A stretch of 64,000 nt of DNA from positions 7,706 to 71,705 of the forward strand of contig CAZDZC010000005.1 of assembly GCA_964509835.1 (NCBI GenBank), written 5' to 3'. Source of the stretch: an uncultured Acidobacteriota bacterium. Lineage in GTDB: Bacteria; Acidobacteriota; G020349885; CAZDZC01. Position numbers: made by a program. Below, one piece after another: positions 21,001-24,000 of this stretch (the first letter of the stretch is position 1; each line of letters starts with the position of its first letter).

Positions 21001-24000
21001 AAGGATAGATTCAGAAGATTCATATATGAGCACAAACGCCAGTAACCTGAAGCTCGCATCATTTAATTGAAAAGCGTTCTGAAGATAAAACGCTGAAACG
21101 GAAGCGAAGTAACAGGCAATGCCCTCCTGACATATCAGAAGCAGATTGAAAAAATTATTTTTTCTTCCAACTGTCAGATGTGCGAGACTGTGCCCTATGA
21201 TACAGAATAAAAAACCGAAATAAGGTTCCGTTGTTATCAGAAATGTTCCTGCGAGAATCCCGGGACTTAACGAAATCCCTTTTGCCGAGCGGTGATACCT
21301 TTCATCAAGACAATAAGCTGCGTAGACAATCAACATAAGAGAGATCATCTTCCAGATGGAAAGCGATTCTTTACAAGGAAGACTCATAGTGATTATTACT
21401 ATTAATGCCAAGGCATTTGAAATGCTGTATAAAAAAGCAAGAATATTACGCATTTGCCTAAATCTGAGTCTTATTGTTCCTGAATGGAACATTGTTGAAA
21501 TCGTAAGTGACAGTGAATATACCCAGTAAAAGAATTGTGCCGCCCAGCAAAAGAAAGGGGGTAATTCTGTGACCGAGCAATATTGCGCTGAAAATTACAG
21601 TAAAAAAGGGGTTAAGGTAAACAAAGCTTGCAACCCTTGTAGGACTTACCCTTTGAAGGGTCCAACTCCATATAAAAAAGCCGATGATTGTGCAGAAAAC
21701 AGACAGATACATTACGGACAGGATTGTTGTACCGCTTAATGAAATTATCTTTGTCAGAAAATCCATGCGGAACCAGTAAAATACCGGCAAAGAGCCAATA
21801 AGAATGCTTGAAAAAGTCACAACAACAGGCGAATGTTTTTTTAGGACAGGCTTAGCAGTGATGGTGTAAAGGGCCCAGGATAGAGGCGCCAAAACCGTTA
21901 TAAGTGCAGCTTTGTAATAACTGAAGTCTATTCTCTGTCCCGCTCCGAAAGCGACCACTATATACATACCCAGAAAAGCGATGATAAGCCCCCAGACTTT
22001 ATGCATGGAAGGTTTCTCCTCTTTAAGCATAACGGAAAGCAGAAAAGTGAAGGCAGGATTCAGGGCAATCAGAATGGAGGCTGTTCCGGAAGGTATTTGA
22101 AGTTCACCTGTATTTAGGAAAATATTGTAAAGAATGACGCTGCAAAGTCCCATGAAAGTAATCCTTGCCGGATATTCCCTCATCAATTCAAGAGTGGTCC
22201 GTCTTTCAAAAAGAAGAAGATAAGACAGGCAGAACGCAAAAACCGGGAAAAATCTGAATGCCAGAAGCTCCCACGGAGTAAGTTCTTCCAGGGCAACTTC
22301 TATCGCAATGAATGAGTTTCCCCAGATTAGGAATGTCAGAACTATCGGAATATAAATAAGATATTTTTTCATATCGAAAAGAAAAACCCGCTCCTCAGAT
22401 GGAGCGGGTGCTGTTGAAGTATATATTTAGCTGAATATCTTAAATTTCTCGTCAAGATATTTCATTTTCTCGACTATCCCACCATATTCCAGTTCGGAGT
22501 ATCCAAGCATCGCATTGCCGGAAAATCCCTGTTCTCTTATATCCAGAGCCTTCTGCGATATTTTGTTCCTTATGAAATCCCAGAATGGATGATCAAAGGC
22601 ATCGGCCGGTTCAGTAAGTTTCCCTCCCTGAACACAGAAAGCGGCACAGGTTACAACCGGAGGTCCGTCAAAAAATGAGATGGTGCAGTTCTGTTTGCAT
22701 GGCATAAGCGGCCCGTTATGACTGCCCCTCATGAATCCTGCGACATTGTGCCCAATTTTGAAGGGCTGAAGGACTTCACCTGTGGCAGGAAACCCCCCCT
22801 GTACCCTTACAAGCATTACAGGATCGTCTTTGCCGGTATATTTCCCGGCAATGTTGTGAAGCCTTGTTGTGCTGACTGCGGCAACAGGTTCACCGTCAAC
22901 CGTTCTTATGCTCTCAACCACAAATCTCTGGTTGTCTCTCAGAAGGGCGGCAATATCATATATTTCTTCTGGGGATTTGAGTTCAATAATTCTATCCCCT
23001 TCGGTATGCTCTACATCCATTATTCTGAATTTAAACCCGTCCTTCATTTTCGGGCTAAGTATCAAACCCGCGTTATACATCGGATCAACAAACGACAGAT
23101 AGAGGGGAAGGTTGTATGCTCCAGGATCTGTCTTGTCGGCAGCGAAGAAGAGGAATGGTTCATTCGCTCTTTCATCAAATTCAAGTTCAACAACTGCTGG
23201 ACCCATCCCTTTTACATTTCCGGAGAAGGAATCTTTCAGAAGATCCTGTCCTGCTCCGTAAAGCCCCTGTTTTTTGGCAACGGCTGTTCCGGCAAGAAAG
23301 GCATCCCATGCAAGTTTGTGAATGTCTGAATGGTTGGCCCCTTTCGTATGGGTGCATAAAATAGCAATATCGTCACCGGTGCTCGAAATAAAATGATCAA
23401 TCAGAAGGTTTTTGCCCAGTTCAGATACCGCTGATCTCACAGCTTCCAACACCTCCCTGCTGGGCATTATATGTCCACCGATACTTCCAATATCGGCCTT
23501 CAGGACACTTAGTGTAACTTTACTCATTCCGTATTCCTCCTTACAGACTGATTAAAAAAATTCATCTTTTATTCGTATCAAAAAAAGAGACTATATACTA
23601 GTCTGGCACATGATGCTTGTCAAGGACTATGGCCGTTCCAAAGGGAAGAGCGAATTGACAATATTTATTCTATGATTTAAACTTTGCATATGTTTAACGA
23701 TATTAGACAAGGGGTATTGACAGTTATGAGACAGAATATTGACAAGCTTCAAACGGGGGATCGGGTTCAGGAGTTCTACCTGGCGGTCGAGAAAAAAATT
23801 GCCACTACAAAAGCCGGGAAACCATATCTGGACATAGTTCTACAGGACAGCACCGGCAGGATTCCATGCAAGATCTGGGACAATGCGGTGGAAGAGTCCG
23901 ATAAATTTTCGTCCGGTGATATTATCAAGATTCTTGGAATTGTAACTGATTATAAAGGAAAGCTCCAGATTACCGTTGATAAGCTCAGGGCTGCCGTGGA

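What the first reader, a model, noticed from the sequence alone, without database searches (positions are those of the whole stretch)
23580..23625. Palindromic candidate operator overlapping the promoter of the bifunctional FBP aldolase/phosphatase gene
On the minus strand, a near-consensus promoter (TTGACA-17-TAGTAT) sits about 65 nt upstream of fbp (RBS AAGGAGG). A perfect inverted repeat AGACTA-N5-TAGTCT is centred exactly on the -10 and TSS region. Such geometry is typical of a repressor operator and would place this gluconeogenic gate under tight transcriptional control. The divergent yhaM promoter is adjacent.
Basis: seen in the sequence. Interest (0 to 1): 0.5.

Follow-up and report, generated by a model that had tools for sequence, protein, structure and literature searches.

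The report
Ordinary fbp promoter; palindrome is incidental
The promoter in front of the gluconeogenic FBP aldolase/phosphatase gene looks real and is conserved in the only related genome, but the short palindrome over it is what chance gives and is not conserved, so nothing supports it as a repressor binding site.

Summary
The sequence is as described, on the minus strand: TTGACA (23623-23618), 17 nt, TAGTAT (23600-23595), inverted repeat AGACTA-N5-TAGTCT (23604-23588), AAGGAGG (23542-23536), fbp ATG at 23527.

The promoter reading holds. In the only relative found (L082; FBPase 90%, RpoD 84% identical; same gene order), CTTGACAA, the 17-nt spacing and CTAGTATAT are identical, while the spacer (3/15) and the next 4 nt (0/4) have diverged. 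A 9-bp terminator stem after fbp is conserved too.

The operator reading does not hold:
- Perfect 6+6 inverted repeats with spacers of 0-12 occur 5.1 times per kb in this window. Ten percent of 46-nt windows hold one, and 55% of shuffles of this intergenic region produce one.
- Six of the 12 arm positions lie in conserved blocks: the -10 block and the first T of a conserved T tract.
- In L082 the arms read CGTCTA/TCCATT, complementary at 2 of 6 positions.
- No second copy exists in 64 kb plus 21 kb, or upstream of 81 other fbp genes, beyond chance.
- No DNA-binding regulator was found among 46 of the 50 window ORFs scanned.

Verdict: an ordinary sigma-70 promoter of a monocistronic fbp unit, with an incidental palindrome. 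One item is unexplained: a conserved TCTTTTTTT tract at the predicted start site.

The parts
23618..23623 (-). -35 hexamer TTGACA of the fbp promoter (conserved block CTTGACAA, 23624-23617)
   Evidence: (10 of 12 matches to consensus, 17-nt spacer). The block is 8/8 identical in sister locus L082 9901-9908, while the adjacent spacer is 3/15.
23595..23600 (-). -10 hexamer TAGTAT (conserved block CTAGTATAT, 23601-23593)
   Evidence: The block is 9/9 identical in L082 (9924-9932) at the same 17-nt spacing.
23588..23604 (.). Perfect inverted repeat AGACTA-N5-TAGTCT overlapping the -10 and the predicted start site; judged incidental
   Evidence: Present. Not above chance. Sister arms CGTCTA/TCCATT are complementary at 2 of 6 positions. 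No other copy.
23580..23588 (-). Conserved TCTTTTTTT tract at the 7th to 15th nt after the -10 (predicted start and initial transcribed region); function unknown
   Evidence: 9/9 identical in L082 9937-9945, between diverged flanks (0/4 upstream). The anti-SD idea holds only in the sister.
23536..23542 (-). Shine-Dalgarno AAGGAGG, 8 nt before the fbp ATG
   Evidence: The sister has AGGAGG 5 nt before its ATG.
22427..23527 (-). fbp: bifunctional class V fructose-1,6-bisphosphate aldolase/phosphatase, 366 aa
   Evidence: Pfam FBPase_3, E 6e-155, covering 361/361 model positions. More than 5000 homologues at E<=1e-100.
22376..22409 (-). Intrinsic terminator after fbp: stem ACCCGCTCC/GGAGCGGGT followed by TTTTTCTTTTC
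   Evidence: The same 9-bp stem with a different loop, plus a T run, occurs in L082 11119-11154.
23655..23683 (+). Divergent promoter-like site TTGACA-17-TAAACT of the yhaM-like gene
   Evidence: The -35 block GAATTGACAA and the 17-nt spacing are conserved in L082 (TTGACA-17-TAATAT).
23690..24670 (+). yhaM-like gene (OB fold + HD domain); the start is ATG 23690 (as in the public annotation, 326 aa) or ATG 23726
   Evidence: Pfam tRNA_anti-codon + HD. P0241 is 326 aa. 68% identical to the sister protein.

Best explanation
The region is the core sigma-70 promoter of a monocistronic fbp transcription unit. RNA polymerase holoenzyme, carrying the primary sigma factor encoded in the same window, recognises TTGACA and TAGTAT 17 nt apart. 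It starts near 23588 and makes a U-rich leader of about 61 nt with a strong Shine-Dalgarno sequence. Transcription stops at a conserved GC-rich hairpin 18 nt after the stop codon. The 6+6 palindrome has no function of its own. Its inner half (CTA...T) is the conserved -10 block and its last T belongs to a conserved T tract. The remaining bases match by chance in this lineage only.

Shown here: the presence of every element, its conservation or lack of it, and the chance rates. Inferred: the start site, and the absence of a bound repressor.
For: - Elements and spacing.
- Sister genome L082 has the same gene order, HtrA-yhaM<>fbp-EamA-GGDEF.
- Anchored comparison: -35 block 8/8, spacer 3/15, -10 block 9/9, next 4 nt 0/4, T tract 9/9. 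The left arm is 4/6 and the right arm 2/6 identical, and the sister arms are complementary at 2 of 6 positions.
- The sister scan returns the same TTGACA-17-TAGTAT.
- The terminator stem is conserved.
- Chance rate of such repeats: 5.1 per kb; 10% of 46-nt windows hold one; 55% of shuffles of the intergenic region give one. Two of 12 promoter-like sites outside ORFs of 90 aa or more carry one.
- No extra copies: window, L082, 81 other fbp upstream regions with 9 hits against 9.4 expected.
- Half-site hexamers are not enriched in intergenic DNA.
- A primary sigma factor with regions 1.1 to 4 is present.
- Consensus-like sites are concentrated in the 6.3% intergenic fraction.
- No Rfam family matches, and the two leaders share no structure.
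Against: - Only one comparator genome exists, so a repressor site gained or lost since the split cannot be excluded.
- Only 64 kb of this genome and 21 kb of the sister could be searched for further copies.
- No transcript data exist, so the start site is predicted, not mapped.
- The sister also has an unrelated repeat just after its -10 (TATATCCAT-N9-ATGGATTTA). This could be read as a second lineage-specific site.
- Regulator genes need not be adjacent to their targets.
Confidence: 0.8

Rival explanations
1. Lineage-specific repressor operator. A dimeric helix-turn-helix protein encoded elsewhere in this genome binds AGACTA-N5-TAGTCT. It occludes the -10 and the start site and shuts off fbp when sugars are available.
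For: Perfect dyad with arm centres 11 bp apart, placed over the -10 and the start, a geometry used by many repressors. The gene is a unidirectional gluconeogenic enzyme, for which control would make sense (established knowledge of the class V FBPase). A third AGTCT lies just before the Shine-Dalgarno sequence at 23548-23544.
Against: Not above chance. Six of 12 arm bases lie in the conserved -10 and T-tract blocks, and the rest are unconserved, so the dyad is lost in the sister. No second site in 85 kb or upstream of other fbp genes. The third AGTCT is absent in the sister. No regulator among 46 of 50 window ORFs. No match to the operator families checked.
Confidence: 0.08
2. The regulatory information at this promoter is the conserved TCTTTTTTT tract at the start site, not the palindrome. 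It could act through start-site choice or reiterative transcription on a U run, or as a U-rich leader element that affects translation.
For: The tract is 9/9 identical at the same offset from the -10, although the flanks are saturated with changes. Neither genome has a purine at the 6th to 9th nt after the -10. In the sister the tract pairs with the Shine-Dalgarno region (probability about 0.85; duplex -10.8 kcal/mol, better than 99.4% of shuffled 5' ends).
Against: In the window the tract does not pair with the Shine-Dalgarno sequence (probability about 0.05; -4.6 kcal/mol, no better than shuffles). No shared leader structure, with z-scores of -0.2 and -0.1. T runs are not typical of fbp leaders elsewhere: 14 T runs against 18 A runs in 80 loci. 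Only two sequences are available. The constraint could simply reflect promoter strength or promoter escape.
Confidence: 0.1
3. Weak intrinsic terminator or attenuator. If fbp transcription began further upstream, the RNA hairpin AGACUA-GUAUA-UAGUCU followed by CUUUUUUU would stop part of the transcripts.
For: Hairpin of -5.7 kcal/mol directly followed by a run of seven U. A weaker promoter-like site, TAAACA-18-TAGAAT, lies upstream at 23696-23667 on the same strand.
Against: The stem has only 6 pairs, 2 of them G-C. The conserved near-consensus -10 lies inside the hairpin. The sister keeps the T run but has no hairpin before it. There is no upstream gene on this strand to terminate.
Confidence: 0.02

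Closest known systems
Canonical bacterial sigma-70 (housekeeping) promoter
   Same: TTGACA at -35, a 17-nt spacer and a TAnnnT -10. It lies 67 nt upstream of the start codon, in intergenic DNA. The genome has a primary sigma factor with regions 1.1 to 4, and the promoter is conserved in the sister genome.
   Different: The -10 is TAGTAT (4 of 6). There is no TG extension. The predicted start lies in a pyrimidine run (TCTTTTTTT) with no purine at the usual +1 positions.
Promoter-occluding palindromic repressor operators (the generic class, e.g. LexA, LacI-family or TetR-family sites over the -10 and +1)
   Same: Dyad symmetry over the -10 and start site, with a half-site spacing compatible with a dimer on one face of the helix.
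   Different: Arms are only 6 bp and no better than chance. The dyad is not conserved in the orthologous promoter. There are no further copies, no cognate regulator gene and no match to a known consensus.
Thermococcales glycolytic motif (TGM, TATCAC-N5-GTGATA) bound by Tgr/TrmBL1, which controls glycolytic and gluconeogenic genes in Thermococcales (PMC4158304)
   Same: A 6-N5-6 inverted-repeat geometry. When it lies over the start site it represses. It acts on central sugar-metabolism genes in organisms that use the same kind of FBP aldolase/phosphatase.
   Different: The sequence is unrelated (AGACTA/TAGTCT against TATCAC/GTGATA). It belongs to an archaeal BRE/TATA promoter context. It is a multi-copy regulon motif, whereas this site is single. 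No TrmB-family gene was found in the window.
C-boxes of restriction-modification controller proteins (GACT-N3-AGTC TGTA GACT-N3-AGTC; PMC2647307)
   Same: The half-site core GACT/AGTC.
   Different: Here there is GACT-N7-AGTC and only one palindrome instead of two. There is no TGTA linker and no restriction-modification or controller gene nearby.

Membership tests
Sigma-70 type promoter | -35 and -10 hexamers close to TTGACA and TATAAT, separated by 16-18 nt | tested here: met
   TTGACA-17-TAGTAT, 10 of 12.
Sigma-70 type promoter | The host has a primary sigma factor and uses this consensus | tested here: met
   RpoD-like ORF 48918-50585 with regions 1.1, 1.2, 2, 3 and 4. 13 of 23 sites with at least 10 of 12 matches lie in the 6.3% of the window that is intergenic.
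Sigma-70 type promoter | Hexamers and spacing conserved in orthologous upstream regions while the flanks diverge | tested here: met
   8/8 and 9/9 blocks and the same 17-nt spacer length in L082, with spacer sequence 3/15. One comparator only.
Sigma-70 type promoter | Transcript 5' end 6-9 nt downstream of the -10 | not testable with these tools
   No transcript data. Needs 5'-RACE or a metatranscriptome.
Repressor operator (palindromic, promoter-occluding) | Dyad symmetry stronger than the local background | tested here: not met
   5.1 such repeats per kb; 10% of 46-nt windows hold one; 55% of shuffled intergenic regions give one.
Repressor operator (palindromic, promoter-occluding) | Dyad kept in orthologous promoters | tested here: not met
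   Sister arms CGTCTA/TCCATT, 2 of 6 complementary.
Repressor operator (palindromic, promoter-occluding) | Further sites in the genome (a regulon), or a cognate regulator gene nearby | tested here: not met
   No excess of matches in the window, L082 or other fbp upstream regions. No DNA-binding domain in 46 of 50 ORFs. The rest of the genome was not available.
Repressor operator (palindromic, promoter-occluding) | Protein binding to the site | not testable with these tools
   Needs a footprint or gel-shift assay with protein from this uncultured organism.
TGM / TrmB-family site | Consensus TATCAC-N5-GTGATA (or TACT-N3-AGTA, or TACT-N7-8-GAGTA) | tested here: not met
   The sequence is AGACTA-N5-TAGTCT. 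Consensus sequences taken from PMC4158304.
C-box (controller-protein operator) | Two GACT-N3-AGTC palindromes joined by TGTA, upstream of a controller gene of a restriction-modification system | tested here: not met
   A single GACT-N7-AGTC. Consensus from PMC2647307. No restriction-modification genes in the window.
Known RNA leader elements (Rfam) | Match to a curated covariance model | tested here: not met
   No match even at E<=10 in 23300-23900, and none at gathering score in the whole window.

The most novel reading that the evidence does not exclude
This promoter does carry control beyond the core hexamers, in one of two ways. Either the conserved TCTTTTTTT tract at the start site governs fbp expression, for instance through nucleotide-sensitive start-site choice or reiterative transcription. 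Or the palindrome is a recently acquired operator for an unknown repressor. Either would be the first described transcriptional control of the bifunctional FBP aldolase/phosphatase in a bacterium.
Probability: 0.15. Interest if true: 0.4.

Novelty: not a real feature. Interest (0 to 1): 0.1.

Why it matters
The bifunctional FBP aldolase/phosphatase is a one-way gluconeogenic enzyme, so how bacteria keep it from running against glycolysis is a fair question. My two literature searches aimed at its regulation turned up no bacterial regulator (an earlier attempt failed on term syntax). A real operator here would have given a handle on that question in an uncultured, deep-branching lineage.

The evidence instead shows a strong, ordinary promoter, a strong ribosome-binding site and a strong terminator, with no sign of a dedicated repressor site. 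The practical value is negative. This palindrome should not be carried forward as a regulatory motif. It also shows that 6-bp dyads overlapping AT-rich -10 boxes are expected by chance.

Tried and rejected
1. Footprinting across many genomes. The genome scan with FBPase gave 80 loci, all 78% identical or less and none syntenic. The enzyme is too conserved to pick out close relatives.
2. The metagenome scan with the faster-evolving YhaM-like protein gave only hits of 48% or less, none next to fbp.
3. Protein searches with FBPase and YhaM showed a single relative: 90% and 68% identity, then a drop to 78% and 48%. Contigs of P0003, P0005 and P0017 are not syntenic. So there is one comparator only.
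4. Searches for further motif copies with up to 3 mismatches in the window, in L082 and in 81 other fbp upstream regions gave nothing above chance.
5. Riboswitch or leader RNA: no Rfam match, no significant or shared fold.
6. Anti-Shine-Dalgarno role of the T tract: holds in the sister only.
7. Terminator or attenuator reading of hairpin plus T run: rejected, because the conserved -10 lies inside the hairpin and the sister has no hairpin there.
8. A regulator gene in the neighbourhood: none found.
9. Known operators with similar half-sites (C-box, TGM/TrmB, RccR/HexR TGTAGT, NagR dre): none fits.
10. Organism name: cluster look-ups gave no names. The nearest named RpoD hits are 'Acidobacteriota' at about 57%.

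Full report
**What is there**

Read on the minus strand, the intergenic region between fbp and a divergent yhaM-like gene contains these elements:
- TTGACA at 23623-23618, a 17-nt spacer, and TAGTAT at 23600-23595.
- The perfect inverted repeat AGACTA (23604-23599) - GTATA - TAGTCT (23593-23588).
- A run TCTTTTTTT at 23588-23580.
- AAGGAGG at 23542-23536, and the fbp ATG at 23527.

The ORF 22427-23527 is a full-length class V FBPase (PF01950 FBPase_3, E 6e-155). The divergent gene has an OB fold and an HD domain, as YhaM-type 3'-5' exoribonucleases do. It has its own promoter-like site, TTGACA-17-TAAACT, at 23655-23683.

**Is the palindrome more than chance? No.**

- The exact motif is unique in the 64-kb window even with two mismatches, against 1.7 expected. 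With three mismatches there are 13 matches against 21 expected.
- As a class, perfect 6+6 inverted repeats with spacers of 0-12 occur 329 times in the window, or 5.1 per kb, and 10.3% of all 46-nt windows contain one.
- Shuffles of this 198-nt, 34% GC intergenic region produce at least one in 55% of trials.
- Among 12 promoter-like sites outside ORFs of 90 aa or more, two carry such a repeat: this one and the yhaM one.
- The hexamers AGACTA and TAGTCT are not enriched in intergenic DNA.

**Comparative evidence**

FBPase is so conserved that the 80 best genome loci are all 72-78% identical, come from many phyla, and none shares the gene order. Searches of the 5.8-billion-protein collection with FBPase and with the faster-evolving YhaM-like protein each show one relative only. 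Identity is 90% and 68%, then drops to 78% and 48%. A metagenome scan with YhaM found nothing closer than 48%, and none of those hits lies next to fbp. Three of the 77-78% FBPase contigs were fetched and are not syntenic.

The single relative, L082 (GCA_054039415.1), has the same order HtrA-yhaM<>fbp-EamA-GGDEF. Its RpoD is 84% identical. At this distance unconstrained intergenic positions are saturated with changes, so the comparison is informative even though it rests on one genome.

Anchored on the -35, without gaps:

| Segment | Identity, window vs L082 |
|---|---|
| CTTGACAA (-35 block) | 8/8 |
| remaining spacer | 3/15 |
| CTAGTATAT (-10 block) | 9/9 |
| next four bases | 0/4 |
| TCTTTTTTT | 9/9 |

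The promoter scan of L082 returns the same TTGACA-17-TAGTAT, and TTGACA-17-TAATAT for yhaM. The palindrome does not survive. Its left arm becomes CGTCTA, with only the CTA of the -10 block and one G kept. Its right arm becomes TCCATT, with only the two end Ts kept, and both lie in conserved blocks. The two sister arms are complementary at 2 of 6 positions. The sister has its own unrelated short repeats at other positions (ACCAGA-N4-TCTGGT and TATATCCAT-N9-ATGGATTTA). This again shows how easily such repeats arise in this kind of DNA.

**The transcription unit**

Eighteen nt after the fbp stop codon lies a 9-bp stem with 7 G-C pairs, ACCCGCTCC/GGAGCGGGT, followed by a T run. The same stem, with a different loop, follows fbp in L082. 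So fbp is a monocistronic unit bounded by a conserved near-consensus promoter and a conserved intrinsic terminator. It has a U-rich leader of about 61 nt and a strong Shine-Dalgarno sequence.

The window encodes a primary sigma factor with regions 1.1 to 4. Thirteen of the 23 sites with at least 10 of 12 consensus matches lie in the 6.3% of the window outside ORFs of 90 aa or more. Two of the 13 are overlapping readings of one site, and one overlaps the start of a small rubredoxin ORF. The organism therefore uses this consensus.

**Other readings tested**

- No Rfam family matches the leader or anything else in the window. The two leaders have no significant or shared fold, with z-scores of -0.2 and -0.1.
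- The hairpin plus T run looks like a weak terminator on the minus strand (-5.7 kcal/mol). However, the conserved -10 lies inside it, the sister has no hairpin before its T run, and no upstream gene on that strand needs terminating.
- No DNA-binding transcription factor was found among 46 of 50 ORFs or among small ORFs in the gaps.
- Operators with similar half-sites or geometry do not fit. C-boxes are GACT-N3-AGTC in pairs (PMC2647307). The Thermococcales glycolytic motif is TATCAC-N5-GTGATA and the Halobacterium TrmB site is TACT-N7-8-GAGTA (PMC4158304). RccR sites are TGTAGT/ACTACA (PMC11014249). NagR dre sites are also different (PMC5110562).

**What remains unexplained**

The TCTTTTTTT tract is clearly constrained and sits exactly where transcription should start. 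Neither genome has a purine at the 6th to 9th nt after the -10.

In the sister it pairs with the Shine-Dalgarno region (probability about 0.85; -10.8 kcal/mol, better than 99.4% of shuffled controls). In the window it does not (probability about 0.05; -4.6 kcal/mol, no better than shuffles). T runs are not a general property of fbp leaders. It may affect start-site choice, promoter escape or translation. None of this could be tested here.

**Verdict**

The operator interpretation is not. The palindrome is best explained as a by-product of the conserved -10 block and T tract plus a few chance matches specific to this genome. A lineage-specific operator cannot be excluded with one comparator and 85 kb of sequence. 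I put it at about 8%. Interest is low.

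Noticed in passing
window 23580-23588 (minus strand); L082 9937-9945: TCTTTTTTT tract at the predicted fbp start site is 9/9 conserved between diverged flanks. Neither genome has a purine at the usual +1 positions. It pairs with the Shine-Dalgarno region in the sister but not in the window.
   Followed up: partly
window 23683-23728 (+ strand); L082 9812-9857 (minus strand): In both genomes an in-frame ATG of the yhaM-like gene lies exactly 6 nt after the -10 (window ATG 23690, the publicly annotated start), which would give a leaderless mRNA. However, a second ATG 36 nt downstream (23726) is preceded by a perfectly conserved CAAGGGGTATTGA that looks like a ribosome-binding site. 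The true start is therefore ambiguous.
   Followed up: partly
window 30206-30370 (minus strand), promoter-like site 30445-30417: A small rubredoxin-like ORF ([15 protein letters not shown]...CPLCG, 54 aa) missed by a 90-aa cut-off, with TTGACA-17-TAAATT upstream. A single AGACTA half-site abuts its -35, which is consistent with chance.
   Followed up: no
window 11021-11049 (+) and 11081-15830: A perfect consensus promoter TTGACA-17-TATAAT, 32 nt before a PrkA - DUF444 - SpoVR gene trio.
   Followed up: no
window 22376-22409 (minus strand); L082 11119-11154: The intrinsic terminator after fbp keeps an identical 9-bp stem in both genomes while the loop differs (ATCTGA against TGTAAAGT).
   Followed up: yes
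whole window; L082: The source is an uncultured, sparsely sampled lineage. Only one relative was found in 5.8 billion proteins (RpoD 84%, FBPase 90%, YhaM 68%). The next RpoD hits are at 62% or less, and the nearest named ones are 'Acidobacteriota' at about 57%. An identical 3-kb contig occurs in the Logan assembly of SRR14492171.
   Followed up: partly
window 23617-23661; L082 9878-9909: The -35 boxes of the two divergent promoters form an inverted repeat (TTGTCAA/TTGACAA, 31 nt apart; in the sister GTTGTCAA/TTGACAAC, 16 nt apart). This is a trivial consequence of back-to-back promoters, but the inter-promoter distance differs by 15 nt.
   Followed up: yes
window 30503-31744 (+): An archaeal-type cofactor-independent phosphoglycerate mutase (PhosphMutase + Metalloenzyme domains) is the only other central-carbon gene in the window. 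Its upstream region has no copy of the palindrome.
   Followed up: partly
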